A stretch of DNA of 46,396 bases from Candidatus Omnitrophota bacterium (GCA_016782485.1 JADHYK010000003.1:1-46396); one strand, 5' to 3'; positions 5,617-42,493 are shown, numbered from the stretch's first letter. The notes: generated by a model from the letters alone, not told the origin. Numbers and translations are program-made.

Positions 5617-7716
5617 ATGGGTTTTGATTTATTGATACTGGCTCCGGTGGGTTCAATAACCGCGCTTTTATTTGCTGCTTACCTTGCGTTTTTTATTCTT
5701 AGAAAGGATGAGGGCAACGATACGATGAAAGAGATTGCCCGGGCGGTAAGGATAGGGTCAAGGGCGTACCTTAAAAGGCAGTATTTAGGCGTATCTTTAT
5801 TCTTTTTAGTGGTATTTTTTATCCTTCTGGGCCTGGCATTCAGGAATTACCTGGTTATCTTCGTACCCTTTGCCTTCCTTACCGGAGGGTTCTTTTCCGG
5901 CTTATCCGGGTTTATCGGGATGAGTATCGCCACCCAATCCTCCAACCGCACGGCTGCCGCAGCGATAAAAAGCCTGAACTCCGGCCTGCGCGTTGCTTTT
6001 TCAAGCGGAGCGGTGATGGGGATGGTGGTGGTGGGACTGGGGCTGTTGGATTTAAGTATCTGGTATTATTTCCTCGACTGGTATTATTCTTCACACCCTA
6101 TCCCCATAGGGACGGATAAAATTACCGCGATCACCTCTACCATGCTTTGTTTCGGGATGGGCGCCAGTTCGCAGGCCTTATTTGCCAGGGTAGGCGGCGG
6201 TATCTTTACCAAGGCCGCTGATGTGGGCGCGGACCTGGTCGGTAAAATAGAGGCGGGTATCCCGGAGGATGACCCGCGTAACCCCGCGGTAATCGCCGAT
6301 AACGTAGGCGATAACGTGGGAGATGTCGCGGGCATGGGGGCTGACCTTTACGAATCTTATGTAGGTTCTATCGTTGCTACTTCGGCTTTGGGTGTCGCTG
6401 CTGGCTTAGGCGTGTTGGGTGTAACCGTGCCTATGGTTATGGCAGCGGTAGGGGTGGTAGCGTCGATATTGGGGACATTTTTCGTCAGGAGCAGCGAAGA
6501 GGCAAAACAGAATGTTCTCTTAGCCGCTTTAAGAAAGGGTATTTTTATCAGCGCAATGTTAATAGCGGTGGGTGCTTATTTTCTGATTAAATTTACGCTG
6601 GGCCAGCAGCATATCGGGATTTACTGGTCGGTGGTTACCGGATTAATTGCCGGGGTTTTAATCGGGCTGTCTACGGAATATTATACATCAAGCAATTTTA
6701 AGCCTACGCGTTCTATCGCCGATGCCACCCTCACCGGGCCGGCAACCGTAATTATCAGCGGGATGGCAGTAGGGATGATGTCAACGGCCGTGCCGGTGCT
6801 GGTCGTAGGCAGTGCGATATTGTTGAGTTTCTTTTTTGCCGGGGGGACTGCGAATTTTGCGGCCGGCCTTTACGGTATAGGCATCTCTGCGGTAGGCATG
6901 CTTTCTACCTTAGGGATTACCCTGGCAACCGATGCTTATGGCCCGGTTGCCGATAACGCAGGCGGCAATGCCCAGATGGCGCATTTAGCTCCCGAGGTGA
7001 GAAGAAGGACCGATGCCCTGGACTCTTTAGGCAATACTACGGCGGCAACCGGTAAAGGTTTTGCCATCGGTTCGGCGGCGTTAACTGCCCTGGCATTGAT
7101 TGCCGCATACCGTGACCAGGTAGGGCTGCACGGAGGCAATTTAACCTGCAGCTTTATGAATCCGGCGGCCCTGGTAGGTTTATTTATCGGCGGGATGCTG
7201 CCTTTTCTCTTCTGCTCTCTGACCATGCGCGCGGTAGGCAGGGCAGCGGGTAAGATTGTAGTTGAGGTACGCAGGCAGTTTAAGGAGATCAGCGGCTTGA
7301 TGGAAGGAAAGGCAAAGCCGGATTATGCGGCCTGTGTTACTATTGCTACGGTCGCAGCGCAAAAAGAGATGGTTTTGCCTTCACTCCTGGCAATTATATC
7401 GCCTATCGCCATTGGTTTACTTATCGGGGTAGAGGCGGTTGTAGGCCTGTTAATCGGCGCGACAGTCTGCGGTTTTGTCCTGGCGGTGATGATGGCGAAC
7501 TCCGGCGGCGCCTGGGATAATGCCAAGAAATATATAGAAGAAGGCCATTACGGAGGCAAGGGGTCCCTGTCGCACAAGGCAGGTGTGGTGGGTGATACGG
7601 TAGGAGACCCGTTTAAAGACACCTCCGGCCCCAGCCTGAATATCCTGATTAAGCTGATGTCGATGGTCTCTATCGTTTTTGCCGCCTTCATCGTCTCCAA
7701 CTCCCTGCTCAAATAA
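5617..7716 (+). CDS. hppA: Membrane-bound ion-translocating pyrophosphatase, K+-dependent (probably Na+-pumping)
   Basis: [29 protein letters not shown] and [10 protein letters not shown] motifs; GNTTAA (Ala, not Lys) marks K+-dependence; DLYESY is compatible with Na+-PPases. Confidence 0.95.
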
Positions 7717-7717
7717 A

Positions 7718-7839
7718 GGTTAGGTAGTTAGGTTAAGGTTAGGAAGCCGGTATGGTAGTTTGGTTAGGGTTAGGGTTTTTACATAACCTTAACCCAATTT
7801 TCAATACCGGCGTCTTAACCCTAACCCAATGACCTAACC
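7718..7839. repeat. Long imperfect inverted repeat built from GGTTAG/GGGTTA hexamers
   Basis: GGTTAGGT(7718-25)/ACCTAACC(7832-39), GCCGGTAT(7746-53)/ATACCGGC(7804-11), and inner GGTTAGGGTTA / TAACCTTAACC arms. Confidence 0.85.
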
Positions 7840-7888
7840 CTTTAGTTATAAAGGCATCTTTTTTAAATATAGATTTTTGCTCTTTTGA

Positions 7889-7897
7889 TGTTATAAT
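7889..7897 (+). promoter_or_regulatory. Extended -10 promoter, probably giving a leaderless sigma-factor mRNA
   Basis: TGtTATAAT ends 6 nt before the ATG at 7904; no Shine-Dalgarno sequence. Confidence 0.55.
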
Positions 7898-7903
7898 AAG
7901 ACT

Positions 7904-8509
7904 ATGGACGATTTAGCATTTGTCCAGAGCTGTATCAGGCAGGATCCATTTGCCTGGGATGAATTCGTTGAGAAATATTCACGCCTTATCTACAGTTACA
8001 TCCACAGAGTCTTACATAGCAAGGGTATTGCCGCCTCAGAAAGTTACGCCGGCGATATCTGCCAGGAACTCTTTCATTCCTTAATCAAGGACAATTTTAA
8101 AAAGCTAAAGACCTACCGCGCTAAAAACGGCTGCTCTCTGGCCAGCTGGCTGAGGCAGGTTAGCGTTAATTTTACCATAGATTATACCCGCAGGATAAAG
8201 CCGGCGGTTTCTATGGACCAGGACGAAGAGGGCAGGGGCCCCTTAAAAAATATTCTTGCCGGCGGCGCAGTTTCGGCGCTGGATGCGCTTATCGGCAAAG
8301 AAAAAATTAGCGGCCTGCACGAATGTATCGACAGGCTGGATAACGAAGATAAATATTTTCTGGAATTATACCTGAACCGCGGGATCAAGCCGGAAAAGTT
8401 AAAGAAACATTTTAAAGTCTCGCGCAGCGCCATAGACATGCGCAAGCTCCGGCTGATAGCGCGCCTGCGGGAGTGTTTCAAGAGCAAAGGTTTTGTGTTA
8501 GATTCTTAA
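7904..8509 (+). CDS. ECF-type sigma-70 RNA polymerase sigma factor
   Basis: Region 2 (AWDEFVEKYSRLIY, DICQELF, LASWLRQVSVNFTID) and region 4 (CIDRLDNEDKYFLEL...SAIDMRKLRLIARLRECF). Confidence 0.88.
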   Translation: MDDLAFVQSCIRQDPFAWDEFVEKYSRLIYSYIHRVLHSKGIAASESYAGDICQELFHSLIKDNFKKLKTYRAKNGCSLASWLRQVSVNFTIDYTRRIKPAVSMDQDEEGRGPLKNILAGGAVSALDALIGKEKISGLHECIDRLDNEDKYFLELYLNRGIKPEKLKKHFKVSRSAIDMRKLRLIARLRECFKSKGFVLDS

Positions 8510-8547
8510 TTTTCTTGCGTCTATTATAGTAGGAGAGGAATACGGCG

Positions 8548-9261
8548 ATGACCAATAAATTAGAGGCTTTGATCAAGTCGGTTTATAACAGCTGGCAGGC
8601 CGCTCAAAAACAACAACAGCAGCAGCAGGGCGCGCACCCCGATGAAGAGGCCTTGGCCTGTTTTCTTGAAGGCCGCCTGAGCGAGCAGGAGGGCGAGGCG
8701 ATAAAGGCGCATTTAGTAAGTTGCCGGGATTGCTCTGAGGCCTTCAGCCTGAGCCTGGAGATGGAGAATCTTGAGGAAAGCCAGCTGCCGCAAGGTGCGC
8801 TTACCTATATAAAGGAGCTGCTGGCAGGCGCAGATACGGGTTCTCTATTGGAGATAGTCCTGCAATTTAAAGAGAGGGCGATAGAGATTTTAAGGACCAG
8901 CGGCGATGTGCTTTTCGGCCAGGAGGTGCTGGCGGCTTCGCTTTTACGTGCGCGCAAGATAAAGGATTTCCGGGACGAGGTTATCATCCTGAAAGATTTC
9001 AAAGAGTTAAGGGTCCAGATCAGGGTGGAGAATAAGTCAGGCAGGAGCTTTGACCTGAATATCTCGGTAAAAGATAAAGAAACGCAGAAGGTGATTAAGG
9101 ATTTAAGGGTTACGCTTATCAGGGAGGACCTGGAGCTGGAGTCTTACCTTACCGGCTCAGGAGCGGTAACTTTTGAGCATGTATTATTAGGCAAGTATAA
9201 ACTGGAGATCTCCGGTATCGACGATAAGCTTGCTACGGTATTATTGGATATAAAGAGCTGA
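8548..9261 (+). CDS. Soluble zinc-finger (zf-HC2/ZAS) anti-sigma factor with C-terminal beta-rich domain
   Basis: HPDEEALACFLEGRL...H55-x3-C59-x2-C62; no TM segment; beta-strand-like C-terminus (LRVTLIRE...GAVTFEHVLLGKYKLEI). Confidence 0.82.
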   Translation: MTNKLEALIKSVYNSWQAAQKQQQQQQGAHPDEEALACFLEGRLSEQEGEAIKAHLVSCRDCSEAFSLSLEMENLEESQLPQGALTYIKELLAGADTGSLLEIVLQFKERAIEILRTSGDVLFGQEVLAASLLRARKIKDFRDEVIILKDFKELRVQIRVENKSGRSFDLNISVKDKETQKVIKDLRVTLIREDLELESYLTGSGAVTFEHVLLGKYKLEISGIDDKLATVLLDIKS

Positions 9262-9263
9262 CC

Positions 9264-11471
9264 ATGCAGGAAGAGAGCCCTCTGGTTTTGGATATATTAA
9301 AGCAGGACAGTAACCTGAAGATGAGCCTCTTCGAGCAAAAAGAGGTTGCCTCGACGTTAAGGCATTACAACCTCTGCCGGGTCTCGTTTACGGAAATCGA
9401 CAGCTTATGCCAGGAGGCAGTATCTCTTCTGAATAAGGCTAATCAGCGGGGGGCCCTGGAGCTTGAGCTGATTAAGGGCCTGACTAAGACCGGACAGCTA
9501 CTCTGGGACCATTTACTTAGTGCCCCGGTAAAAAACAGGCTCAAAAACACCCGTATCCCGGATTTAATCCTCTCCATAGACGAAGAATTAATCAATATTC
9601 CCTGGGAGCTGCTTTATGACGGAAGTAATTTCCTCTGCCTGAACTTTAATCTGGGCCGGGTGGTTAGGACTAAAGAGGAGCCGGCCGCAGTGCATTACCG
9701 CAGTCAGGCCGCAGTCCCGAATATGCTGATTATGGCTAATCCCACCGACGATTTGCATTCCGCATACCTGGAAGGGCTGAACATAAAAAACCAATTCGAC
9801 CGCAGGAGAAATAAAATCTACATTGATTTTAAGTCTACCCGGATCGATAAGCTGTACGTCAAGAAAAACCTTTGCGATTACGATATCGTGCATTTTGCCG
9901 GCCACTGTGAATACCAGCCCGATAATCCTTCTGAGAGCGGCTGGGTGTTAAGCGACGGCAGGTTCACCGCCGAAGATATAATGGCGATGGGTTCGACATT
10001 CTCTCTGCCGACGCTTATTTTTTCCAATGCCTGCCATTCCGCAGAATCCGCTGCGGGCCTCTTAAGCCAGGATTACCAGAAAGAGAATTACGGCCTTTCC
10101 TCGGCATTTTTATTTTCCGGGGTGCGCCATTATATCGGCTCGGTGCGCAGGATAGAAGATGACTTGAGCCTTTTATTTGCAAAGGAGTTCTATGCCCAGT
10201 TAATCTCCGGCAGGCCCGTAGGGGGCTGTATGCGCATGGCCCGGCTTGCCCTGATCAGGCAATGCGGGATCAACAATATCGCCTGGGCAAGCTACCTTCT
10301 TTACGGAGACCCTAATTTCGCCATTTTTAGAGAAAAGATAAAAGAGGCAAAACCGAAAAAAAGAAAAGGGCTTTTATATTATAAAAAACAGTTAGCCCTG
10401 GTTTCTCTGGCAGCAGCCGCTGTCTCTCTGGGGATATTGCTCTATGCCTGGCTGCCTTCTTTGAATCCCAGTGTTTATTTTCTTTTGTCAAAGTCGCGTA
10501 AATTATATCTTAACGGGAAAAACCAGGAGGTTATTTCCTTATGCGGGCGCATTATCGAAAAGGAACCGGAGTTTCTGGCAGCATACCCTTTGCTTGCCGA
10601 TGCCTACAAAAGGACAGGGGATGAAGAAAACGCCTTAAAACATTATTTTGAATACGCGCGATTCAGCGAACGCCGGGCCGATAAAAAAAACTTAGCCTCG
10701 GCATACCTCTCGATAGGCTGGTTTTATCATCTTGAGGGCGAGCATACCAAGGCCATTGATTTCTATAACAAGGCACTGGCGGTGAGTACGGATAATAAAG
10801 ACAAGTTAAACCAAGCCGATGCCTTAGGAAAAATGGCGGTCTGGTATATGGATAAGGAAGATAACGATAAGGCGCTGGAGCTGTTAACCAGGAGCGCTGA
10901 GATTAACCGCCAGAGAATAAATCATTATAAACACAGGTATAACCTGGCCTGCGATTATTTTAACCTCGGCCTGTTATTCACCAATAAAGATGACCTGGCG
11001 ACGGCAAAGGAGTTTTACCAGAAAAGCTACTTGCTCTTTGAAAAACTGAAACTCAAACACGAGCTGAGCGATTATTATTTCAATATCGGCGAAATCCACC
11101 TTTTTGAAAAGGAGTACCAGAAGGCGCTGGATTCTTATATGAAGGGCCTGGAGATTGACCTGGCACAGGGGAACAGGCAAAGCATCGCCAGCGATTACAG
11201 TATGATCGCAGAGCTGTATATGGCAATGGATGATTTAGGGGAGGCAGAGGAGTATTTTCGCAGTTCCATCGCCCTGGCCAAAGAGATAAATGCCCGCCCG
11301 GAGCTGGCAGAGGCTTATTACCGGCTGGGGGTGCTTTATAAGAAGAAGCCGGGTAAAAGACACCGGGCCAGGGAGTGCCTGCGCCAGGCGCAGGAGATTT
11401 ACCGTTCAATCAACGCAGAAGCGGGGTTCCAGGAGGCTAGAAATGAACTTTTGACCCTGACCAGCAGGTAA
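9264..11471 (+). CDS. CHAT (caspase-like) protease - TM helix - TPR array protein
   Basis: IPWELL, IVHFAGH (His214), IFSNAC (Cys257) and WASYLLYGDP; basic KPKKRK patch, then a TM segment (~aa 377-398), then multiple TPRs. Confidence 0.9.
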   Translation: MQEESPLVLDILKQDSNLKMSLFEQKEVASTLRHYNLCRVSFTEIDSLCQEAVSLLNKANQRGALELELIKGLTKTGQLLWDHLLSAPVKNRLKNTRIPDLILSIDEELINIPWELLYDGSNFLCLNFNLGRVVRTKEEPAAVHYRSQAAVPNMLIMANPTDDLHSAYLEGLNIKNQFDRRRNKIYIDFKSTRIDKLYVKKNLCDYDIVHFAGHCEYQPDNPSESGWVLSDGRFTAEDIMAMGSTFSLPTLIFSNACHSAESAAGLLSQDYQKENYGLSSAFLFSGVRHYIGSVRRIEDDLSLLFAKEFYAQLISGRPVGGCMRMARLALIRQCGINNIAWASYLLYGDPNFAIFREKIKEAKPKKRKGLLYYKKQLALVSLAAAAVSLGILLYAWLPSLNPSVYFLLSKSRKLYLNGKNQEVISLCGRIIEKEPEFLAAYPLLADAYKRTGDEENALKHYFEYARFSERRADKKNLASAYLSIGWFYHLEGEHTKAIDFYNKALAVSTDNKDKLNQADALGKMAVWYMDKEDNDKALELLTRSAEINRQRINHYKHRYNLACDYFNLGLLFTNKDDLATAKEFYQKSYLLFEKLKLKHELSDYYFNIGEIHLFEKEYQKALDSYMKGLEIDLAQGNRQSIASDYSMIAELYMAMDDLGEAEEYFRSSIALAKEINARPELAEAYYRLGVLYKKKPGKRHRARECLRQAQEIYRSINAEAGFQEARNELLTLTSR

Positions 11472-11608: not shown

Positions 11609-11636
11609 TTGACTTAATAAAAAAATATGGTATACT
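11609..11636 (+). promoter_or_regulatory. rplM-rpsI promoter
   Basis: TTGACT-16-TATACT with an extended TG; the ATG follows 9 nt later with no SD. Confidence 0.65.
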
Positions 11637-19699: not shown

Positions 19700-21085
19700 A
19701 TGAGTAAAAAACTTTGGGGTGGGAGGTTTAGTAAAAAGACAAACCCGTTGGTGGAAGATTTTACTAAGTCGATAGATGTAGATTATCTATTAGCAAGACA
19801 CGATATTATGGCTTCGCTAATACATACAAAAATATTGGCTAAGGCTAAGCTTATTTCTGAGCCGGAGTTTAAAATTCTGTATAAAGGCCTATCGGATATT
19901 CAGAATGAACTGGGCAAAGGCAAATTTAAATTTGATAAGAATTCAGAAGATATACATACAGATATACAGAATAAATTAGAAAGGAAAGTGGGTCCCGTGG
20001 CACTCAAATTGCATACTGCTAGATCAAGAAATGAGCAGGTAGTTTTTGATACCAAGAGATACTGTGTTTTTGAAGTATGTAATATTATAAATAAATCAAT
20101 CGGTGATTTTATAAAACAGATTGAAAAATTCGCTAATACTCATAAAAATATTATAATGCCTGGTTATACGCATATGCAGCATGCGCAACCTGTCAAATTC
20201 AAAGATTATATTCTTGCTTATGCATATATGTTAAAGCGGGATTCAAAGAGATTAGAGGACTCTTTGCATAGATTGACATACCCCTTGGGTTCGGGAGCGT
20301 TAGCAGGAACATCTATGGAAGCGAAATTATATAATGAGGCTGCGAAGGAAATTGCTGAAAAAATGGACCATCCGTTTTTTAAAGTAGTGGAAAACACTAT
20401 AGATAATATTAGCGATAGAGATTTTATTATAGAAATTTTGAGTGCTCTGGCAATCCTTGGTATGCACCTTTCGAGGATGGCAGAAGATTTTATTATTTGG
20501 TCAACGCAGGAATTCGGATTTATCGAAATAGACGATGCCTTTTGTACCGGTAGTTCTTTAATGCCACAGAAAAAGAATCCCGATACTTTAGAATTAATTA
20601 GGGGCCATACCGGAGAATTATACGGCAATTTAGTTTCGGTCCTTGTAATGATGAAGGGCTTGCCTTTAACTTATAACAGGGATATGCAATTAGATAAAAA
20701 ACCATTATTCAGCTCAATAAAGATTATCAAAGATGAACTGGAAATCTTAACCAGATTGATAGCCGGCATAAAGATCAATAAAGTAAATATTAAGAGACAG
20801 CTGGAAGAAGAATCTTTATATGCTACAGATTTAGCCTTTTATTTAGCCAAAAATAAAGTTCCCTTCAGGAAGGCGCATGAGATTATAGGTAAATTGATAA
20901 AGGATTCGCTAGATTTAAATAGAAGAATAAAAGACATGAAAGATGAAGAGCTGAAGAAATACTCTCCGTTTATTAACGGGAAAGTCATAAAAAATATATT
21001 TAATCCGATAACATCGGTTAATTCAAAAAAATCCTTTTCAAAAAAAAATCTATCCTGTAGAGTAACGGTTGTTGAGCCCCGATAA
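19700..21085 (+). CDS. argH: Argininosuccinate lyase
   Basis: LWGGRF, HTARSRNEQ, PGYTHMQHAQP and GSSLMPQKKNPD; start at ATG 19700 after a GAGGGG RBS. Confidence 0.96.
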   Translation: MSKKLWGGRFSKKTNPLVEDFTKSIDVDYLLARHDIMASLIHTKILAKAKLISEPEFKILYKGLSDIQNELGKGKFKFDKNSEDIHTDIQNKLERKVGPVALKLHTARSRNEQVVFDTKRYCVFEVCNIINKSIGDFIKQIEKFANTHKNIIMPGYTHMQHAQPVKFKDYILAYAYMLKRDSKRLEDSLHRLTYPLGSGALAGTSMEAKLYNEAAKEIAEKMDHPFFKVVENTIDNISDRDFIIEILSALAILGMHLSRMAEDFIIWSTQEFGFIEIDDAFCTGSSLMPQKKNPDTLELIRGHTGELYGNLVSVLVMMKGLPLTYNRDMQLDKKPLFSSIKIIKDELEILTRLIAGIKINKVNIKRQLEEESLYATDLAFYLAKNKVPFRKAHEIIGKLIKDSLDLNRRIKDMKDEELKKYSPFINGKVIKNIFNPITSVNSKKSFSKKNLSCRVTVVEPR

Positions 21086-21089
21086 TTAA

Positions 21090-21626
21090 ATGAGATACCG
21101 TAGTATTTTTCATCTCGCCTGCGAGGTATTTAAGAGGGAAGGTATTCGCGCTGTTTTGATTGGCGGCTTTGCGGTGAATTACTATAAGGTAACGCGCCAG
21201 AGCGCGGATGTTGATTTTTTAATTACCGAAGAGGATTTTAAGAAGATACTGCCTTTGTTTGAAGAGCAAGGATATAAGATAGATTATGCGCAGGAGGTAT
21301 TCGCCAGGCTCAAGAGCGACAATTTTTACCTGATGGATCTTGATTTCATGTTTGTGGATAGAGACACTCTGGATAAAATTGTTAAGGCAGCTAAAGTAGT
21401 CGCAATAGCCGAGCAGAAATTTATCGTTCCTTCTTTAGAGCATTTAATCGCGCTTAAGTTACATTCGTTGAAATATAATCCGGCATTGCGCGAGAATAAA
21501 GACCTCTCTGACATCGTTGAGTTGATTAGAATAAATAAAATGCAGGTAAAAACCAAGGAATTCAAGGAATTATGTCTTAAATTTGGCACAAAAGAACTCT
21601 ACGATAAAATTTTGCAAAAGATATAA
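21090..21626 (+). CDS. Minimal nucleotidyltransferase-fold protein (putative toxin-antitoxin component)
   Basis: LIGGFAVNYY..RQSADVDFL (GG...R..DxD), LIALKL and KDLSDI. Confidence 0.8.
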   Translation: MRYRSIFHLACEVFKREGIRAVLIGGFAVNYYKVTRQSADVDFLITEEDFKKILPLFEEQGYKIDYAQEVFARLKSDNFYLMDLDFMFVDRDTLDKIVKAAKVVAIAEQKFIVPSLEHLIALKLHSLKYNPALRENKDLSDIVELIRINKMQVKTKEFKELCLKFGTKELYDKILQKI

Positions 21627-21800
21627 ATGGAAGATTTAAAATTACCCATTATTAAAAAACCTTTACCTGCCGCCAAATGGCTGTCTATGGATGATTACGT
21701 AAGGTTCGTGACAATGAATATAAGATATACTTTGGATAAAAGAAATTACCGTAAATGGAAAAAATTAGCGGCTGTTAAAGAGAAATTCTCATTAGAATAA
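21627..21800 (+). CDS. 57-aa basic protein, partner of the nucleotidyltransferase (not in ORF track)
   Basis: MEDLKLPIIKKPLPAAKWLSMDDYVRFVTMNIRYTLDKRNYRKWKKLAAVKEKFSLE*; abuts the upstream stop (TAAATG) and ends 1 nt before lysA. Confidence 0.7.
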   Translation: MEDLKLPIIKKPLPAAKWLSMDDYVRFVTMNIRYTLDKRNYRKWKKLAAVKEKFSLE

Positions 21801-21801
21801 T

Positions 21802-23073
21802 ATGCACGAATTTAGATACATAAATAACCGGTTATATTGTGAGAAGGTCAAAGTTGAGGAGCTGGCGAGAAAGTTCGGTACCCCGCTTTATGTTTACAGC
21901 TACCACACCATGCTGGACCATTTTCATAAATTGCAGGCCGCCTTCAGGAGCGTGAAACCGCTCGTCTGTTATTCGGTCAAGGCAAACTCAAATTTAGCAA
22001 TCCTGAAGGCATTGGTGGATAAGGGTGCCGGCCTGGATATTGTTTCAGGCGGAGAGTTATACCGGGCGCTTAAAGCCGGGTGTCCTGCGCAAAAAATCGT
22101 CTATGCCTCGGTAGGCAAGACCGATAAAGAGATAGAAGAGGCGGTAAAGAAAGGGATACTTTTTTTTAACGTTGAATCCCTCCCGGAGCTGGAGAATATC
22201 AACCGTATCGCCGGGCGTTTTAAAAGACCCGTCAATGTGGCATTGCGCATAAACCCGGATGTGGAACCTAAAACGCATAAATTCATCACTACCGGAAAGA
22301 TTACTAATAAATTCGGCATTGATTTTGCAGTGGCTCGCAGGATTCTTTTATTGCGCCGGAGTTTGTGCAATATAAAAATCTGCGGCCTGCATATCCATAT
22401 CGGTTCCCAGATTACCGAGAGCGCGCCTTTTGTCGCCGCGATAAAAAAAGTCATCGCTTTCCTGGCAAGAATGAAGAATGAAGGCGTGACCCTGGAATAT
22501 TTAAACCTCGGCGGCGGCCTGGGGATAGTCTATGATAACGAGAAGCCGCAGACGGCAGTTAAATTTGCCGCTCAAGTTTTGCCGCTGTTGAAGAGAACCG
22601 GCCTCAAAGTTATTATGGAGCCGGGAAGGTTTATTATCGGTAACGCCGGAATTCTGGTGGCCAGGGTGTTGTATTGTAAATCTACGCCCAGAAAGAGATT
22701 CGTCATCGTTGATGCCGGAATGAATGATTTAATCCGGCCCTCTTTTTACAATGCCTACCACCAGATCCTGCCTATCCGCTATCCGCTATCCGCTATCCGC
22801 TATACGGAAAAAGTGGATATCGTCGGGCCGATCTGCGAAAGCGGGGATTTTTTTGCCAAAGACAGGCGCCTCCCCCGATTAAAAGAGGGGGATTTTATCG
22901 CGGTGATGAGCGCAGGGGCCTATGGTTTCAGTATGTCCTCCAACTATAATTCCCGGCGCAGGGCTAAAGAGGTTATGGTGGTCAAAGATAAGGCCTTCGT
23001 GATCAGAAAAAGGGAGAGTTTCCAGGATTTATTGCGTAACGAAATAATCCCCGCGTTTTTAATGGGGTTATAA
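21802..23073 (+). CDS. lysA: Diaminopimelate decarboxylase
   Basis: YSVKANSN, HIHIGSQ, LGGGLG, EPGRF and GPICESGD. Confidence 0.97.
   Translation: MHEFRYINNRLYCEKVKVEELARKFGTPLYVYSYHTMLDHFHKLQAAFRSVKPLVCYSVKANSNLAILKALVDKGAGLDIVSGGELYRALKAGCPAQKIVYASVGKTDKEIEEAVKKGILFFNVESLPELENINRIAGRFKRPVNVALRINPDVEPKTHKFITTGKITNKFGIDFAVARRILLLRRSLCNIKICGLHIHIGSQITESAPFVAAIKKVIAFLARMKNEGVTLEYLNLGGGLGIVYDNEKPQTAVKFAAQVLPLLKRTGLKVIMEPGRFIIGNAGILVARVLYCKSTPRKRFVIVDAGMNDLIRPSFYNAYHQILPIRYPLSAIRYTEKVDIVGPICESGDFFAKDRRLPRLKEGDFIAVMSAGAYGFSMSSNYNSRRRAKEVMVVKDKAFVIRKRESFQDLLRNEIIPAFLMGL
22772..22806 (+). repeat. CTATCCG x4 + CTATACG heptamer tract inside lysA
   Basis: Read directly; encodes PIRYPLSAIRYT. Confidence 0.9.
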
Positions 23074-38268: not shown

Positions 38269-39828
38269 ATGAATTCATTGGGAATATATTTTGGGCCAAA
38301 ACTGATAATCCTTGCTGAAATTAAGGGCCGGAAATTAATAAAGAGCATTCAGATACCTCAGCCAGTAATAGCCAATGATCTGGAGGCAGGGGCCCCTCCT
38401 GAAGTAACGTTAATACAGTTAGTTGCCCTGATTAAGGATGAATTAAGAAAGAAAGAGATTGAGGCCAAAAGAATAAGCCTTTGCCTTTCGGGAAAAGACT
38501 TAATCATCAGGACCTTTGAAATCCCCTTATTACCGCGCAGCGAATTGAAAAGCGCGGTCAACTTTGAAGCCAGAAAATATATCCCCTTCAAGGGCGAAGA
38601 TATAATCTCTGATTTTCAGATAGAATTTGATAGCGTTAATAAGATTAATCGGGTTCTTTTTATAGCCATAAAGAAAGAGTCTCTGGAAAGGTATATTTCT
38701 CTTTTAGAACAGCTGGGCATTGAAATCAGCGGAATTGAATATTCGGCCTTCAGCCTGCTGAAATTATTAAAACTGGCGGGCCCCAGAGACAGTAACGTTA
38801 CCGCAGTAATCAGCGCGGATCTGCAGGGAGAAGACGAAGCCAATTTCTTAGTCCTTAAAAAAGGCTTCCCATTGTTCAGCCGTGATTTTACCATGTTCAG
38901 CGAGGCAGATTCTGTTACTAAAATTGAGGGGGCGCCGGATTCGGGTATGGCCCTGGAAAAATTCAAGACTGAAATTCGCGTTTCCCTGGATTATTTCCAT
39001 CGTAAATTCTCCGATAAAAACATCCAGAAGGTTATCCTTATTGCCAACCCCGATTATCATAACGAATTGGAAGCATTTATGAAGGAACTCAATTTGCCTG
39101 CCCAATTCCTTGATTCCAACAGGCTTAATAAAATATTAGGGGAAGTTTTTTCTTTCAAGCTGGATTTACTTAAAAGTTATTCCTCGGCATTACTGAACAT
39201 AAAGACTAAATTAAAACTGCACCTTCTGAGCGTAAGGGCAAAGACAGAAGGCGTGGAAAAGGCGCTCACTATTGATGAGCGCCTTAGAGAACTGCTTACG
39301 AACTTAAAAGTTGACCTGAGGGTAGTTTTAGCGGCAATATTAGTTTGCCTGATGACTTTCGGGGTTGGTATTTTACGCATCCTTCCTTTTAAAAAAGAAG
39401 CCAAGGATATAAAAACCATGCGCCTGAAGGCAGGCCCGATAGATTCCGCTTCCAGTTATGAAGAATTAGTTAACGTTCAGAAACAGTACCAGGATAAATT
39501 AGACGACCTGGATAAAGTTATAAAAGAACGGCTGTATCTGACAGAGGCTTTGGACACTATACCGCGCGTTACGCCTGAAGGGCTTTGGCTGGCAGAATTG
39601 CAGTATAAATGCGAGGACAACAACCAGAGAGAACTCCTGTTACAGGGTAGCTGTTATTTAGGCGAGCGCGGTAAAGAATTGGAAGTAATTGATAAATTCC
39701 TGTCCGAGCTCAGGAATAGCCCTAATTTTAAAAAGTTATTTCAGGAGGTAAAAATTATTTCTGTTGAGCGCAAGGAAACCGAGGGCAGGCAGGCATCCGA
39801 TTTTATCATTTCTGCTAAAGGTGCTTAA
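38269..39828 (+). CDS. pilM: Type IV pilus assembly PilM-PilN fusion
   Basis: FEARKYIPF PilM motif, central TM segment, PilN-like PEGLWLAEL...FLSELRNSPNF. Confidence 0.75.
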   Translation: MNSLGIYFGPKLIILAEIKGRKLIKSIQIPQPVIANDLEAGAPPEVTLIQLVALIKDELRKKEIEAKRISLCLSGKDLIIRTFEIPLLPRSELKSAVNFEARKYIPFKGEDIISDFQIEFDSVNKINRVLFIAIKKESLERYISLLEQLGIEISGIEYSAFSLLKLLKLAGPRDSNVTAVISADLQGEDEANFLVLKKGFPLFSRDFTMFSEADSVTKIEGAPDSGMALEKFKTEIRVSLDYFHRKFSDKNIQKVILIANPDYHNELEAFMKELNLPAQFLDSNRLNKILGEVFSFKLDLLKSYSSALLNIKTKLKLHLLSVRAKTEGVEKALTIDERLRELLTNLKVDLRVVLAAILVCLMTFGVGILRILPFKKEAKDIKTMRLKAGPIDSASSYEELVNVQKQYQDKLDDLDKVIKERLYLTEALDTIPRVTPEGLWLAELQYKCEDNNQRELLLQGSCYLGERGKELEVIDKFLSELRNSPNFKKLFQEVKIISVERKETEGRQASDFIISAKGA

Positions 39829-40368
39829 ATGAACGAAAAAATAGAGATTTCAGAATTAATCCATAAATATAAAAAGCCGATTCTAAACATATCTGTGATT
39901 TTAGCCGCGTTATTGATTGCCTTCAGGATCTATAGCGGCCAGGAAAAAGATATAGCCGCCTTAAAAAAACAACAAGAAGGCGAAACGGAAAAGAACCTGA
40001 TAGCGGGCAATATTGTAGGGCTGAGGGAAAAGCTAAATTCTTATAAGCAGTTTCTCAATAAAAAAGACGTATTAGAGTGTGTAAGAAAGTTAAACAATAT
40101 CGCAGCAAGATCATCGGCTAATATTATTTCTATCGTACCGCAAGGCGCAAAAGAGAATTCTTATTATACCTCCTATCCCTTTAATTTAACCATCTTGGCG
40201 AAAAATTACCATATTCTTGCTAAATTTATAAATGAATTGGAAAAAGATAGCGATATATACCTGATAAACCTGCTTACGATTATAGCGCGGGATTCCGGCG
40301 ATTTAAGCGGAGGCTACTCGGAATTAGAAGCGGAAATACAAATATCGACTATTTTATATAAAGACTGA
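39829..40368 (+). CDS. pilO: PilO-like protein
   Basis: TM segment, coiled coil and YHILAKFINELE motif; operon position. Confidence 0.7.
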   Translation: MNEKIEISELIHKYKKPILNISVILAALLIAFRIYSGQEKDIAALKKQQEGETEKNLIAGNIVGLREKLNSYKQFLNKKDVLECVRKLNNIAARSSANIISIVPQGAKENSYYTSYPFNLTILAKNYHILAKFINELEKDSDIYLINLLTIIARDSGDLSGGYSELEAEIQISTILYKD

Positions 40369-40370
40369 TT

Positions 40371-40868
40371 ATGAATAATAAATTCCGGCGCACAATATTT
40401 ATATCTCTTATAGTTTTGGCCTGTTTTTTAAATGTCGAATCGGCGTTTGCAGCTCGGCGGGCCGAAAGCTACGAGGAGTTGGTGAACATGGGGGAAGCCG
40501 GCGGTGCCAGTGTTGCGCAGGCCCCGGATTCGGCTCAAGCCTCGGATATCATAAAGCCGGCGATTGAGTATCAGGCGGATAATTTTCGCGATCCCTTTCA
40601 AAAATACGCCATAGAACCAAAAGTAAAAGTTAACCAAGGCCAGGCGGATAAAGATTTAGATAAAACTGATTCGGAATTTATAAATAGTTTAAATGTCCAG
40701 GGGATAATTTTAGGAGGCAGGTTTCCCCAGGCAATTGTTAACGATACTGTCGTAAAGGTTGGCGATACGGTCGGGGGAGCCCGCATTATCGGCATAACTA
40801 AAAAAGGAATTTCATTATTAATGCATAACCGTGTCTATACTGCAAATACACAAGGAGGCGAGAGATGA
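40371..40868 (+). CDS. PilP/GspC-like protein
   Basis: RDPF motif and VQGIILGGRFPQAIVNDTVVKVGD. Confidence 0.65.
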   Translation: MNNKFRRTIFISLIVLACFLNVESAFAARRAESYEELVNMGEAGGASVAQAPDSAQASDIIKPAIEYQADNFRDPFQKYAIEPKVKVNQGQADKDLDKTDSEFINSLNVQGIILGGRFPQAIVNDTVVKVGDTVGGARIIGITKKGISLLMHNRVYTANTQGGER

Positions 40869-42493
40869 ACAATATGGCAAAGTTTTTCGTAACTATCTCT
40901 GTTTTTATAATTTTGTTTTCCCTCTTCTTGCCGCGGCTGAATGCTTATACGCAGGATATAGAAACAATCCTCTATGACCCCCAAGTAACCATCTCTATGG
41001 ACCTTAAAGACGCCAGCTTAAAGGATATATTGAAGATATTTTCAATACAGTCCGGATTGAATTTTATCGCTTCCGAAGCGGTCCAGGATAGGAGCATAAC
41101 TTTATACCTGGACAGAGTCCCGCTTGAAGAGGCGATGAGCAAGATATTCAAGGCAAACAACCTCTCCTATGAACTGGGCGGGGATTCCAATATCCTTATC
41201 GTAAAGGACTGGGGCAAGGTGGCGATAGAAACTGTAACCCAGGTTTTTTATCTTAAATATGCCACGGTCTCAACATCGCCGTTAGAGGGCGACATAAATA
41301 ATTATATGGCCCCCTCCACGGACGAGACCGGGGCCTTTGGTCCGTTATCTTCATCTTCCACCGGCTCTTCGGCCACTACTGAGGGAGACAGCGAAGATAA
41401 GGAAAAGGACAAGGGCATCACCAAGGCGATAAGGACGCTTCTTTCCAAGGCCGGTAATATAATTGAAGACCCGCGCACAAACAGCCTGATTATTACAGAT
41501 ACCCCTAACCGTATGGAAGTTATTGCCAAGGTCATTGCTTCGCTGGATATCCCCCAACCACAGGTAATGCTTGAGGTCGAAATGCTGGATGTAAATAAAA
41601 ACGCGGTTGATAAGTTAGGGTTAAATTGGGCAGCTGCAGGTTCTTTTGCGATGACGGTTATCAGCGCAGCGAGAATGACCGGGTTTCCTCTGGGCCCGGC
41701 AGGCCATATGGGGGCCGGCCTTGCTAAAGTCACTAATGATTCCATAGTCGGTGATAGTGCCGCAAAATATAATGCCGGTGAAATAAATTTTCCCACCAAT
41801 TTTAAATGGGTCTTTGATTTCTTAAGGACACAGACCGATACCAAGATATTAGCCAGGCCCCGCCTGATGACTTTATCTAACAGAACTGCGGAAATCCAGA
41901 TTGTTACTAATGAATCTATCGGAACGGTACAGGCAGTATCCGGCGGGGGAACAGCTGCCGTTACGACTTCTACAACAGAGGCAGAAAGGTCACTAACCGG
42001 TGTTTCATTAAGGGTAACTCCACAGGTTAATGCAGAATCGGGCGAGATCACGATGTTTATTTATCCCAGCGTAAGAAATGCCACTACCAGTGTCACCTTT
42101 GCCGGCGGCACCTCTTCCGGCGGGACAGCGCTGCCGACATATAAAGACCCCGCGGAACGCACCACTAAACAGGTTGTACGTATCAAGGACGGAGAGACGG
42201 TTATTTTGGGCGGTTTGATCCGCAGGGAGATATCCGAAACCATAACAAAACTCCCCTTTCTGGGGGATATTCCTTTACTGGGCAACTTCTTCAGGCACAA
42301 ATATAAAGACAAAGACGAGGAACGGGAATTATTGGTTTTTATTACCCCCCATATTGTCAAGGATACGGACCTGAAACTTGCACAGGCACGAAACGCTACT
42401 GCGCTACCGGAAAGAGAGCAGGCTGTGGCCTTAGGCACCAATCGCGAATCCTTGATAAATTCTAATCTGAAGCGTTTTGAAAAGAAAAGATAA
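40865..42493 (+). CDS. pilQ: Secretin (PilQ/GspD family)
   Basis: ISMDLKDASL, DPRTNSLII, QVMLEVE, LRVTPQV, GETVILGGLI and LPFLGDIPLLGNFF. Confidence 0.9.
   Translation: MNNMAKFFVTISVFIILFSLFLPRLNAYTQDIETILYDPQVTISMDLKDASLKDILKIFSIQSGLNFIASEAVQDRSITLYLDRVPLEEAMSKIFKANNLSYELGGDSNILIVKDWGKVAIETVTQVFYLKYATVSTSPLEGDINNYMAPSTDETGAFGPLSSSSTGSSATTEGDSEDKEKDKGITKAIRTLLSKAGNIIEDPRTNSLIITDTPNRMEVIAKVIASLDIPQPQVMLEVEMLDVNKNAVDKLGLNWAAAGSFAMTVISAARMTGFPLGPAGHMGAGLAKVTNDSIVGDSAAKYNAGEINFPTNFKWVFDFLRTQTDTKILARPRLMTLSNRTAEIQIVTNESIGTVQAVSGGGTAAVTTSTTEAERSLTGVSLRVTPQVNAESGEITMFIYPSVRNATTSVTFAGGTSSGGTALPTYKDPAERTTKQVVRIKDGETVILGGLIRREISETITKLPFLGDIPLLGNFFRHKYKDKDEERELLVFITPHIVKDTDLKLAQARNATALPEREQAVALGTNRESLINSNLKRFEKKR

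What the first reader, a model, noticed from the sequence alone, without database searches (positions are those of the whole stretch)
7904..11471. CRISPR-independent caspase switch: ECF sigma + soluble ZAS anti-sigma + membrane-anchored CHAT protease with external TPR sensor
Seen: three tightly linked genes. They encode an ECF sigma, an anti-sigma with HxxxCxxC and no TM helix, and a 735-aa protein with an N-terminal CHAT domain (intact His214/Cys257 dyad), a basic patch, one TM helix and a TPR array. Known: CHAT proteases control sigma factors in type III-E CRISPR (Csx29 cleaves Csx30, releasing CASP-sigma). Myxococcus DdvA fuses a ZAS domain to a periplasmic TPR-CHAT. Here no cas genes are in the window and the predicted topology is the reverse of DdvA: protease inside, TPR outside (positive-inside rule). 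Inference: an extracytoplasmic ligand (peptide, phage or host/prey protein) binds the TPRs, activates the cytoplasmic protease, and the anti-sigma is cleaved to release the sigma. This would be a receptor-caspase one-step signalling system.
Basis: partly seen in the sequence, partly recalled or inferred. Interest (0 to 1): 0.85.

Follow-up and report, generated by a model that had tools for sequence, protein, structure and literature searches.

The report
Membrane caspase-like protease sigma-factor switch
A three-gene unit kept almost unchanged across a family of very small Omnitrophota bacteria appears to let a membrane-anchored caspase-like protease control the cell's only ECF sigma factor, which in turn seems to switch on DNA-uptake genes, all without any CRISPR system.

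Summary
The three genes are real and very tightly conserved. The order sigma, anti-sigma, CHAT is found in all 74 related loci with enough upstream DNA and in 14 of 14 more distant loci that I picked. Of 401 phylum genomes, 70 carry both the anti-sigma and the CHAT core, including 58 of 60 in the window's family. In that family cas genes are rare: RAMP 2/61, Cas1 3/61.

Hydropathy and charge bias (78/78) place CHAT inside the cell. So do swaps of the domain after the membrane helix: TPR arrays, discoidin domains, or none.

A controlled complex prediction docks the anti-sigma's C-terminal beta-sandwich on the CHAT domain (ipSAE 0.82, best control 0.00). The His/Cys dyad and one Arg (R134) in the anti-sigma's conserved flexible linker stay invariant even where the zinc motif is lost.

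New here: an ECF-type promoter (GTTAGA-N15-CGTC) lies in the sigma gene's 3' end, ahead of the anti-sigma gene. It also precedes comEA-comEC, comM, a secreted beta-propeller gene and five other genes.

Cleavage, the signal and the assignment of the promoter to this sigma are inferred, not shown.

The parts
7767..7795 (+). terminator-like hairpin after the H+-pyrophosphatase gene; upstream boundary of the unit
   Evidence: 11-pair stem followed by a T-rich tail. The PPase gene is identified (H_PPase 2.7e-265).
7889..7897 (+). extended -10 promoter (TGnTATAAT) ending 6 nt before the sigma ATG; implies a leaderless sigma mRNA made by the housekeeping sigma
   Evidence: Read. 70 of 74 sigma genes have a -10 hexamer 5-12 nt before the start codon, 60 of those with TG. 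An SD-like motif occurs in only 2 of 74.
7904..8509 (+). ECF sigma factor (201 aa); the only ECF-type sigma found in the genome
   Evidence: The genome has 3 Sigma70_r2 matches in all. The other two are a 531-aa-frame RpoD-like gene and a group-2-like gene.
8497..8525 (+). ECF-type promoter GTTAGA-N15-CGTCTATT; its -35 element lies in the last codons of the sigma gene and it drives anti-sigma plus CHAT
   Evidence: PWM hit of 35.6 bits. The PWM was trained only on sites upstream of another gene. Hits at or above 18 bits lie upstream of 60 of 75 anti-sigma genes, with CGTC ending 18-29 nt before the start codon.
8548..9261 (+). anti-sigma factor (237 aa): N-terminal zinc-type anti-sigma domain, conserved flexible linker, C-terminal beta-sandwich
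8635..8733 (+). zinc-ligand set H30, H55, C59, C62 (H-x24-H-x3-C-x2-C)
   Evidence: Invariant in 67 sequences. The best solved relative of this stretch is the DdvA N-terminal domain, E 0.0048. The ligands are lost in 4 of 14 distant homologues.
8902..8979 (+). linker, residues 119-144, with invariant R134 (8947-8949); candidate cleavage site
   Evidence: Most conserved segment of the protein (0.81, against 0.58 for the anti-sigma domain), yet pLDDT is below 50 over 115-141. R134 is invariant in 27 of 27 sequences, including 14 distant ones.
8977..9252 (+). Ig-like beta-sandwich, residues 144-235; predicted docking domain (strand 195-201, LELESYL)
   Evidence: High pLDDT. Only generic Ig/FN3-like fold matches. 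Interface residues. The interface is more conserved than the rest of the domain (0.79 against 0.63; 85 of 10000 random sets reach it).
9264..11471 (+). CHAT-TM-TPR protein (735 aa)
9486..10310 (+). CHAT caspase-like protease domain; H214 (9903-9905) and C257 (10032-10034)
   Evidence: Pfam CHAT 5.3e-36. The dyad is invariant, and in 13 of 13 full-length distant homologues.
9765..9866 (+). residues 168-201 of the CHAT domain; predicted docking surface for the anti-sigma
   Evidence: contacts at 168, 172, 175, 179-180, 182, 186-192, 197-198, 201
10329..10454 (+). basic patch (residues 356-376) and the single transmembrane helix L377-L397
   Evidence: one hydrophobic peak in 78 of 78 homologues, with more K+R on the N-side than the C-side in 78 of 78 (median 7 against 3)
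10488..11453 (+). TPR array (residues 409-730), inferred to be periplasmic
   Evidence: In distant homologues this part is replaced by discoidin domains, longer TPR arrays, unknown domains or nothing.
11609..11636 (+). sigma-70-type promoter of rplM; downstream boundary of the unit
   Evidence: TTGACT-16-TATACT with TG

Best explanation
This is a three-protein switch that carries a signal from outside the cytoplasm to transcription.

Anatomy. The 735-aa protein sits in the inner membrane. Its CHAT (caspase-like) protease domain is in the cytoplasm and its TPR array is in the periplasm. The anti-sigma holds the ECF sigma with its N-terminal zinc-type domain. With its C-terminal beta-sandwich it is docked on the CHAT domain, so the sigma is parked at the membrane next to a resting protease.

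Mechanism (inferred). A cue received by the outside domain activates the protease. The protease cuts the docked anti-sigma in its conserved flexible linker, most likely at the invariant Arg134. The sigma-binding fragment is lost and the sigma is freed.

Output. The sigma then reads GTTAGA-N15-CGTC promoters. In this genome these precede comEA-comEC, comM, a secreted BNR/sortilin-like beta-propeller gene, SpoVG (with dprA two genes downstream), two ORF6N genes, a Gp49/HigB-like gene and an AbiU2-like gene. They also precede the anti-sigma and CHAT genes themselves, which would reset the switch. The sigma gene itself is made constitutively from a leaderless housekeeping promoter.

Status of each step. 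Shown by computation: gene anatomy, co-conservation, conserved residues, promoter motif and its positions. Supported by a controlled model: docking. Inferred: topology, cleavage and its site, outside-in activation, and that this sigma reads the motif.
For: Co-conservation. Sigma, anti-sigma and CHAT lie in the same order in 74 of 80 loci. The 6 others are cut by contig ends. The median gaps are about 39 and 5 nt. The order also holds in 14 of 14 distant loci that I picked from the weaker matches. At genome level, 70 genomes have both anti-sigma and CHAT core, 3 have only the anti-sigma and 1 only CHAT, among 401.

Docking. ipSAE was 0.82/0.82/0.83 against a best control of 0.00. Runs share at least 93% of their contacts and partner pLDDT is at least 71. 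That mark was reached by 58 of 80 solved complexes and by 2 of 110 mismatched pairs (my own alignments were used, so these counts hold only roughly). No solved look-alike exists that could explain this by memory: the CHAT domain has 0 PDB matches at E<=10, and the anti-sigma matches only zinc-type anti-sigma domains.

Catalysis kept. H214 and C257 are invariant.

Candidate substrate site. The linker 119-144 is the most conserved part of the anti-sigma (0.81) yet is modelled as flexible. R134 is invariant in 27 of 27 sequences, while the zinc ligands are lost in 4 of 14 distant members.

Topology and sensor. There is one hydrophobic segment and a positive-inside bias in 78 of 78, with no N-terminal signal. 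The region after the helix is swapped for two F5/8 type C domains, longer TPR arrays, unknown domains or nothing.

Precedent. Csx30 binds CASP-sigma through its N-domain, docks constitutively on the Csx29 CHAT domain through its C-domain, and is cut in a flexible loop (passages of PMC10028731).

Regulon. There are 9 PWM hits at or above 23 bits in the genome; the next hit scores 12. By my arithmetic about 0.25 hits are expected at 23 bits. All 9 point at a gene start 12-118 nt downstream, and the genes are named by Pfam. The motif is also found upstream of comM in 17 of 28 family loci, upstream of comEA-comEC in 18 of 21, and upstream of anti-sigma genes in 60 of 75. The pattern read backwards gives 0 hits in 5 genomes.

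Sole ECF sigma.
Against: Nothing here shows cleavage.

The complex model places no confident contact between the linker or R134 and the dyad. It reports only CHAT 168-201 against anti-sigma 185-224.

The CHAT-side interface residues are not clearly more conserved than the rest of the domain (0.786 against 0.722; 1816 of 10000 random sets reach that).

The zinc motif is invariant within the family, so a redox or zinc trigger remains possible there.

The topology rests on hydropathy, charge bias and domain logic only. No dedicated predictor and no experiment were available.

How one helix would pass a signal to the protease is unknown.

The TPR part is strongly conserved, so no variable external ligand is indicated, and no ligand is known.

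The motif is assigned to this sigma by exclusion and position, not by a binding or transcription test. It is missing at the chosen thresholds from 15 of 75 anti-sigma upstream regions, 11 of 28 comM regions and 3 of 21 comEA regions, and from most distant loci.

No fused anti-sigma-CHAT form was found.
Confidence: 0.5

Rival explanations
1. Tether only. The CHAT-TM-TPR protein anchors the sigma/anti-sigma pair at the membrane. Release comes from the zinc-type domain (oxidation or zinc loss) or from a conformational change passed through the docked domain. The protease has another substrate, or acts only to remove spent anti-sigma.
For: The zinc ligands are invariant in 67 family sequences. Docking is predicted away from any confident contact with the dyad. 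Zinc-type anti-sigmas that respond to oxidants are established (RsrA, ChrR; recalled).
Against: The zinc ligands are lost in 4 of 14 distant members that keep the dyad, R134 and the docking residues. An invariant dyad and an invariant Arg in a flexible linker are hard to explain without proteolysis.
Confidence: 0.2
2. Self-cleavage, as proposed for DdvA. On a signal the CHAT domain cuts its own chain, or that of a neighbour in a dimer, for example in the basic juxtamembrane patch. This releases the CHAT/anti-sigma/sigma complex from the membrane for further degradation.
For: Autoproteolysis in trans at a linker near the membrane helix is the published proposal for DdvA (passages of PMC11506125). 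A K/R-rich patch lies between the CHAT domain and the helix in 78 of 78 homologues.
Against: Release from the membrane alone does not free a sigma from its anti-sigma. The patch is poorly conserved in sequence (0.416), whereas the anti-sigma linker is the best conserved segment. The DdvA proposal itself is not demonstrated.
Confidence: 0.1
3. A phage-defence or stress switch rather than a DNA-uptake switch. The module senses envelope damage or infection and turns on abortive-infection-type genes. The competence genes would be side members of the regulon.
For: Motif-preceded genes include an AbiU2-like HEPN protein (7.4e-7), a Gp49/HigB-like protein and two ORF6N proteins. All known CHAT-sigma links are in defence systems.
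Against: The regulon members tested and found conserved across genera are comEA-comEC (18 of 21), comM (17 of 28), the propeller and the anti-sigma operon. The defence-like genes were seen in this genome only and were not tested elsewhere. PADLOC gives no specific match. The unit sits among housekeeping genes, with the PPase gene upstream in 37 of 52 loci.
Confidence: 0.1
4. Inside-out or assembly role. The sigma/anti-sigma pair is controlled in the cytoplasm by something else. The CHAT-TM-TPR protein is mainly an output, for example a periplasmic TPR scaffold for the DNA-uptake or pilus machinery whose protease processes machinery parts.
For: The CHAT gene is itself under the ECF-type promoter. 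The TPR part is highly conserved, as for a structural partner. Pilus genes lie in the same window.
Against: Predicted docking of the anti-sigma on the CHAT domain and strict three-gene linkage over deep divergence with changing outside domains fit a sensor better than a fixed scaffold.
Confidence: 0.07

Closest known systems
Type III-E CRISPR 'Craspase': Csx29 (TPR-CHAT) / Csx30 / CASP-sigma
   Same: A CHAT protease gates an ECF-like sigma by acting on its inhibitor. That inhibitor has an N-terminal sigma-binding part, a flexible cut site and a C-terminal part that docks constitutively on the CHAT domain. The same three-part layout is seen or predicted here.
   Different: No Cas7-11 or crRNA: RAMP and Cas1 were not found in this genome and are rare in the family. 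The input is a membrane helix plus an outside domain instead of target RNA. The domain order is CHAT then TPR, not TPR then CHAT. The inhibitor is a zinc-type anti-sigma with an Ig-like domain, unrelated to Csx30. NCBIfam's III-E sigma model scores only 21 bits against a cut-off of 100.
Myxococcus DdvA/DdvS
   Same: An ECF sigma is held by a zinc-type anti-sigma domain and linked to TPR and CHAT parts across one membrane helix. The DdvA N-domain is the best solved match to this anti-sigma (E 0.0048). The CHAT dyad is intact and resting, and the signal is unknown.
   Different: DdvA is one chain, with TPR-CHAT in the periplasm and the anti-sigma domain inside. Here there are two chains, with CHAT inside and TPR outside. 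DdvA is proposed to cut itself and then to need RseP. Here the anti-sigma has no membrane helix. The DdvS regulon is CBASS plus CRISPR. Here it is DNA-uptake genes.
CalpL/CalpT/CalpS (SAVED-Lon protease, anti-sigma, ECF-like sigma) and SAVED-CHAT/PCaspase
   Same: A soluble protease cuts an anti-sigma, or a cascade reaches a sigma (and listing).
   Different: Those are activated by cyclic oligoadenylates from type III CRISPR. They use a different protease family (Lon) or a two-protease cascade, and have no membrane receptor.
Regulated intramembrane proteolysis of anti-sigmas (RseA/DegS/RseP, RsiW)
   Same: An outside cue leads to proteolysis of an anti-sigma and release of an ECF sigma, and the anti-sigma gene is under the sigma's own promoter.
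   Different: There the anti-sigma spans the membrane and is cut outside, then within the membrane, then by cytoplasmic proteases. Here the anti-sigma has no helix, and a single cytoplasmic cut by a membrane-anchored caspase-like protease is proposed.
ECF54 context noted in the ECF classification
   Same: A review states that proteins with carboxypeptidase, subtilase and CHAT domains are conserved next to ECF54 sigmas, and that proteolytic control was proposed (one passage of PMC8999054).
   Different: That group is described as lacking an anti-sigma. Whether this sigma belongs to any numbered group could not be tested: the classification's models are not available here and the paper's supplements are closed. 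The main text of PMC7826278 holds neither 'CHAT' nor 'Omnitrophica'.
Competence sigma factors (ComX/SigX of streptococci; recalled)
   Same: An alternative sigma dedicated to late competence genes (comEA, comEC, comM/dprA-type).
   Different: Unrelated control (peptide pheromone systems and MecA/Clp) and no CHAT protease. The likeness is in the output only.

Membership tests
ECF (group 4) sigma-70 family | sigma-2 and sigma-4 regions only, about 200 aa | tested here: met
   TIGR02937 9.8e-16 covers residues 17-191 over model positions 2-164 of 165. Sigma70_r2 scores 28.9 bits against a cut-off of 24.
ECF (group 4) sigma-70 family | reads -35/-10 promoters of the ECF type, often before its own operon | tested here: inconclusive
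   A GTTAGA-N15-CGTC motif lies before the anti-sigma gene in 60 of 75 loci, and 9 sites occur in the genome. It is assigned to this sigma by exclusion. There is no binding or transcription test.
Zinc-binding (ZAS) class I anti-sigma | H-x3-C-x2-C plus an upstream His/Cys ligand in a helical anti-sigma domain | tested here: met
   H30, H55, C59 and C62 are invariant in 67 sequences. zf-HC2 scores 23 bits against a cut-off of 22.2. Helices 33-40, 46-58 and 60-73.
Zinc-binding (ZAS) class I anti-sigma | binds zinc and its cognate sigma | not testable with these tools
Sigma binding is assumed from the family.
CHAT (clan CD, caspase-like) protease | CHAT fold with a His-Cys catalytic dyad | tested here: met
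   Pfam CHAT 125 bits against a cut-off of 24. H214 and C257 are invariant.
CHAT (clan CD, caspase-like) protease | proteolytic activity | not testable with these tools
Type III-E Craspase module | genetic and physical association with Cas7-11/gRAMP and a CRISPR array | tested here: not met
   No RAMP or Cas1 match in the genome. In the family RAMP is found in 2 of 61 genomes and Cas1 in 3 of 61, on other contigs than the triad.
Type III-E Craspase module | Csx30/Csx31 partners and a CASP-sigma | tested here: not met
   NF041236 scores 21.1 bits against a cut-off of 100. The inhibitor here is a zf-HC2 protein.
DdvA-like anti-sigma | a single chain: cytoplasmic zinc-type domain, one membrane helix, periplasmic TPR-CHAT | tested here: not met
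   Two separate genes. The anti-sigma has no hydrophobic segment. CHAT lies N-terminal to the helix with positive-inside bias in 78 of 78. No longer fused forms were found.
Anti-sigma under regulated intramembrane proteolysis | membrane-spanning anti-sigma cut by site-1 and site-2 proteases | tested here: not met
   The anti-sigma's maximum KD19 is 1.61 and the median is 1.07 across homologues, so no helix is indicated.

The most novel reading that the evidence does not exclude
This would be a bacterial 'receptor-caspase'. It is a single-pass membrane receptor whose outside domain is swappable between lineages (TPR array, discoidin domains). Across the membrane it activates its own cytoplasmic CHAT protease. 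The protease cuts a pre-docked anti-sigma at one invariant arginine, and this one step turns on natural competence (comEA-comEC, comM, probably dprA) in ultra-small Omnitrophota. It would be the free-standing, CRISPR-independent form of the CHAT-sigma logic so far known only from type III CRISPR systems. It would also be the first described regulator of DNA uptake in this phylum.
Probability: 0.35. Interest if true: 0.9.

Novelty: new variant of a known kind. Interest (0 to 1): 0.8.

Why it matters
Control of a sigma factor by a CHAT protease has so far been found only inside CRISPR-linked defence systems. The one membrane-linked case (DdvA) has the opposite topology and an unproven mechanism.

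This unit would show that the same logic exists as an ordinary, chromosomal, family-wide signalling device. It has a clear modular build: a variable outside domain, one helix, a conserved protease, a docked substrate and a sigma.

It makes several things directly testable with three small genes and one promoter in E. coli: how a caspase-like protease is switched on across a membrane, what its cut site is, and what it controls.

It also gives a first handle on the regulation of DNA uptake in Omnitrophota. These are uncultured, very small cells with reduced genomes, for which acquired DNA may be both a nutrient and a gene source.

The defined promoter motif allows regulon prediction in hundreds of genomes.

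Tried and rejected
Fold of the anti-sigma C-domain. Foldseek against the PDB gave only generic Ig/FN3-like matches, none at E<=0.001, so no function could be taken from the fold.

PDB by sequence. The CHAT domain alone gave 0 matches at E<=10. The whole-protein profile gave only TPR proteins among the 60 listed. The sigma gave only SigW and one unrelated chain.

Fused forms. No longer proteins related to the anti-sigma were found (the tool calls this weak evidence). The best 150 of 569 clusters at E<=1e-10 are all 286 aa or shorter.

Natural knock-out test. Two family genomes without a detected triad (G259, G344) still carry 1 and 5 strict motif matches. A triad-bearing genome (G061) has only 1. 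With 92-93% completeness this says nothing either way.

Defence-system library. PADLOC gave only generic TPR matches and a weak BovA match.

ESM Atlas. The nearest clusters are Omnitrophota zf-HC2 proteins. One Armatimonadota cluster scored 0.95 and is a lead only.

RNA evidence. No RNA holder was listed.

Downstream synteny. rplM/rpsI follow the CHAT gene in 0 of 62 loci, so the window's downstream neighbours are not part of the unit.

ECF group number. It could not be assigned. The main text of the classification paper has no 'CHAT' or 'Omnitrophica', and its supplements, which may list such a group, are closed.

Outside the phylum. Not searched systematically. A few records are labelled Planctomycetales or Margulisiibacteriota.

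Not in print, as far as searched. Searches found no description of this triad or of competence control in Omnitrophota. Subscription journals are mostly not covered.

Rejected idea: that the 277-aa-frame second sigma reads the motif. Its region 2 is of the RpoD/RpoS type (this judgement is from recall of the family).

Full report
OBSERVATION. The window holds three + strand ORFs at exactly the stated coordinates: 7904-8509 (201 aa), 8548-9261 (237 aa) and 9264-11471 (735 aa). The gaps between them are 38 and 2 nt.

The first ORF is an ECF sigma (TIGR02937 9.8e-16; Sigma70_r2 above its cut-off). The second carries a zf-HC2 zinc-type anti-sigma motif and has no hydrophobic segment. The third has an N-terminal CHAT domain (5.3e-36, residues 75-349) and TPR repeats over residues 409-730. 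Between them lie a K/R-rich patch and one hydrophobic stretch, L377-L397.

The unit is bounded upstream by a terminator-like hairpin after an H+-pyrophosphatase gene. Downstream it is bounded by a sigma-70-type promoter for rplM.

ORGANISM AND SPREAD. Named homologues are all Omnitrophota. The window is contig C46 of a 1.04-Mb genome in 62 contigs, 89.8% complete.

The CHAT protein has more than 1000 full-length relatives. The best 120 are 58-85% identical and about 730 aa long. A scan of one genome per species found 199 relatives, of which 80 loci were kept.

In 74 of these 80 loci, sigma, anti-sigma and CHAT lie in the same order and on the same strand. The other six loci are cut by a contig end just before the CHAT gene. 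The median gaps are about 39 nt (sigma to anti-sigma) and 5 nt (anti-sigma to CHAT).

In a sample of 401 genomes of the phylum, the anti-sigma query matched 91. Of these, 73 matched at about E<=1e-7; the rest are short zinc-motif matches. The CHAT core (residues 1-400) matched 71 genomes. Seventy genomes have both, three have only the anti-sigma and one has only CHAT. In the window's own family the figures are 58 of 60 and 57 of 60.

I fetched 14 of the weaker matches from other families and classes. All 14 keep the three genes in order.

CRISPR INDEPENDENCE. No Cas1 or RAMP match was found in the genome. In 61 family genomes RAMP is found in 2 and Cas1 in 3. In the three of those genomes whose triad position was listed (G231, G297, G312), the cas matches lie on other contigs than the triad.

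TOPOLOGY. All 78 full-length homologues have a single strong hydrophobic peak (median Kyte-Doolittle 2.33 over 19 residues) at the same place. None has an N-terminal signal-like segment. All have more Lys+Arg in the 20 residues before the peak than after it (median 7 against 3). This puts the CHAT domain in the cytoplasm.

Independent support comes from the distant loci. The profile match always covers the CHAT domain and the helix, but what follows differs. It may be two F5/8 type C (discoidin) domains (L086, L091; L087, cut by its contig end, shows one), TPR arrays of up to at least 1830 aa (L083, L094), unrecognised sequence (L088, L090), or nothing (L082, 433 aa). Discoidin domains are, from general knowledge, extracytoplasmic binding modules. 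The core is thus conserved and the outside part is exchangeable, as expected of a sensor.

Within the window's family the TPR part is nearly as conserved as the protease (0.68 against 0.73 mean column conservation). The helix region is not (0.42). This argues for a conserved partner rather than a fast-evolving phage or prey ligand.

THE ANTI-SIGMA. In 67 sequences H30, H55, C59 and C62 are invariant. The spacing is H-x24-H-x3-C-x2-C. Its best solved relative by profile is the N-terminal domain of DdvA (E 0.0048).

An AlphaFold model (mean pLDDT 75.9) shows a helical N-terminal half and a confident beta-sandwich over 144-235. Between them is a stretch (115-141) with pLDDT below 50. That stretch is nevertheless the most conserved part of the protein (0.81, against 0.58 for the anti-sigma domain and 0.65 for the sandwich).

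When the 14 distant homologues are added, R134 is invariant in 27 of 27 rows. So are R187, L190, E196, F209 and Y217 of the sandwich. In contrast, the zinc ligands are replaced in four distant members. H214 and C257 of the CHAT domain are kept in all 13 distant proteins that reach that far.

DOCKING. One controlled complex prediction was available.

The score was 0.82, 0.82 and 0.83 in three runs, and the best of three controls scored 0.00. The runs share at least 93% of their contacts, and the partner's pLDDT is at least 71. In the tool's calibration this mark was reached by 58 of 80 solved complexes and by 2 of 110 mismatched pairs. My own alignments were used, so those counts hold only roughly.

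The confident contacts join CHAT residues 168-201 (notably 186-192) to anti-sigma residues 185-224 (notably strand 195-201). The anti-sigma interface residues are more conserved than the rest of their domain (85 of 10000 random sets reach their mean). On the CHAT side the difference is not clear.

Neither partner has a solved look-alike by sequence, so recall of a known complex is unlikely. The model supports binding but does not show it. It places no confident contact between the linker and the active site.

A PROMOTER AND A REGULON. Nearly all sigma genes are preceded by TGnTATAAT ending 5-12 nt before the start codon (70 of 74, 60 of them with TG). Almost none has a Shine-Dalgarno-like word (2 of 74). 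In the window this element is 7889-7897. The sigma is therefore probably made constitutively from a leaderless mRNA.

Looking downstream of the CHAT gene, 42 of 62 loci carry a gene for a roughly 520-aa signal-peptide protein with Sortilin-Vps10/BNR propeller matches. In this genome that gene lies on another contig.

Its upstream regions share GTTAGA-N15-CGTC with invariant spacing. This was found in 31 of the 42 regions of 130 nt, with other regions affected by my start-codon calls.

A weight matrix built only from those 31 sites finds 9 sites at or above 23 bits in the 1.04-Mb genome. The next best site scores 12 bits. About 0.25 hits are expected at 23 bits by simple arithmetic. Every one of the 9 sites points at a gene start 12-118 nt downstream.

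One of these sites is in the window at 8494-8527. Its -35 part lies in the last codons of the sigma gene, and its CGTC ends 26 nt before the anti-sigma ATG. The same matrix hits upstream of 60 of 75 anti-sigma genes.

The other eight sites precede the following genes:
- the propeller gene;
- comM (Mg_chelatase 1.3e-91);
- a ComEA-like HHH_3 gene followed by comEC (Competence 3.8e-55);
- SpoVG, which is followed after a 183-nt gap by aroK and dprA (DNA_processg_A 1e-79);
- two ORF6N genes;
- a Gp49/HigB-like gene;
- an AbiU2-like gene.

Across other genera of the family the motif lies upstream of comM in 17 of 28 loci (2 of 30 were dropped for lack of upstream DNA). It lies just upstream of comEA-comEC in 18 of 21 loci (9 of 30 were dropped as partial or short). 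The strict pattern read backwards occurs 0 times in five genomes.

The genome has only three sigma-70-family genes: an RpoD-like one, a group-2-like one, and this ECF. The motif has the two-block, fixed-spacing, CGTC-type look of ECF promoters (from general knowledge) and sits in front of the anti-sigma gene. I therefore assign it to this sigma, with about 0.8 confidence. The conserved output is then DNA uptake and processing.

MECHANISM. The layout matches the type III-E CRISPR module in logic. Csx30 holds CASP-sigma with its N-terminal part, docks constitutively on the Csx29 CHAT domain with its C-terminal part, and is cut in a flexible loop when the protease is switched on (passages read).

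Here the RNA-sensing Cas7-11 is replaced by a membrane helix and an outside domain. I therefore favour the following sequence: an outside cue, activation of the cytoplasmic protease, a cut in the docked anti-sigma at or near R134, release of the sigma, and expression of the regulon. That regulon includes fresh anti-sigma and protease, which reset the switch.

My rough odds are as follows:
- the three proteins form one regulatory module: 0.85;
- CHAT inside and TPR outside: 0.85;
- the anti-sigma docks on CHAT: 0.7;
- the anti-sigma is the protease's substrate: 0.55;
- the cut is at R134: 0.35;
- the whole chain as stated: 0.5.

The weak profile matches of distant members' CHAT domains to gingipain (C25) and separase (C50) families are compatible with an Arg-directed enzyme, but they are not evidence for it.

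The rivals are a pure tether with a zinc or redox trigger, self-cleavage as proposed for DdvA, a defence switch, and an inside-out or scaffold role. They are weighed in their own sections.

COMPARISON AND NOVELTY. The unit is not a member of the Craspase module, because there is no Cas7-11 and the inhibitor is different. It is not DdvA-like, because there are two chains and the topology is opposite. It is not a regulated-intramembrane-proteolysis system, because the anti-sigma has no helix. It works like the first of these.

A review notes CHAT-domain neighbours of ECF54 sigmas, a group described as lacking anti-sigmas. The classification paper's main text mentions neither CHAT nor Omnitrophica, and its supplements could not be opened. 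Five literature searches found no description of this triad or of competence control in Omnitrophota.

I rate it a new variant of a known kind, a protease-gated anti-sigma switch. Its input architecture and its output are both new.

LIMITS. Everything is computational. The full CHAT protein could not be modelled. No RNA data were listed. Phyla other than Omnitrophota were not surveyed.

Noticed in passing
window 7889-7903 and loci L003-L081: The sigma gene appears to be leaderless. An extended -10 element (TGnTATAAT) ends 5-12 nt before the start codon in 70 of 74 loci, and almost none has a ribosome-binding word (2 of 74). By contrast 69 of 75 anti-sigma genes have one.
   Followed up: yes
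window 7715-7842: A long imperfect inverted repeat lies between the pyrophosphatase gene and the sigma gene. It has 49-nt arms, 78% complementary, built from GGTTAGG / CCTAACC-like units. It includes the terminator-like hairpin. Its meaning beyond termination is unknown.
   Followed up: partly
L004-L077 downstream of the CHAT gene; own genome G000:C11:1704-3263 (L104): A roughly 520-aa signal-peptide protein with Sortilin-Vps10/BNR beta-propeller matches follows the CHAT gene in 42 of 62 loci (12 of them within 335 nt). It carries the ECF-type promoter. In this genome it sits on another contig. It is a candidate periplasmic partner of the TPR domain, but this was not tested.
   Followed up: partly
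G000:C11:3424-6216 (L104): After the propeller gene come three ORFs, including a 542-aa ORF whose start looks like a serine recombinase (judged by eye, not scanned). Then comes a second 62-residue copy of the propeller's C-terminal end (69% identical). This looks like an inserted mobile element with a duplicated gene end.
   Followed up: no
L056, L010, L024, L012 and G000:C11:1592-1703: In some genomes a roughly 90-110-nt leader lies between the ECF-type promoter and the propeller gene's start. It contains a shared GACATAA...TATG(T/C)C...GAACTTA-like stretch and hairpins. It may be a leader RNA element. It was not compared with Rfam.
   Followed up: no
window 38269-42493: Type IV pilus-type genes lie in the same window: a PilM/PilN-like ORF (4.6e-9 and 3.7e-7) and a secretin (6.9e-41). 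No ECF-type motif precedes them. They may be relevant to DNA uptake.
   Followed up: no
window 21090-21626: The only marked G+C dip in the window (0.357 over 20001-22000) overlaps a 178-aa ORF with AbiEii/NTP_transf_5 nucleotidyltransferase matches. The ORF lies just after argH and is probably acquired DNA.
   Followed up: no
L042:6001-8202: The CHAT gene of this locus has one in-frame stop codon. Its gap to the anti-sigma gene is unusually long. This may be a pseudogene or an assembly error.
   Followed up: no
G000:C16:33193-37397 (L165): dprA lies two genes downstream of the motif-preceded SpoVG gene (SpoVG, 183-nt gap, aroK, dprA, then topA-like and xerC-like ORFs judged by eye). Whether dprA is co-transcribed, and whether this is conserved, was not tested.
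   Followed up: partly
L082-L094: Distant lineages replace the first zinc ligand His by Cys (a C-H-C-C set, as reported for DdvA). Four have lost all ligands while keeping the docking residues and R134.
   Followed up: partly
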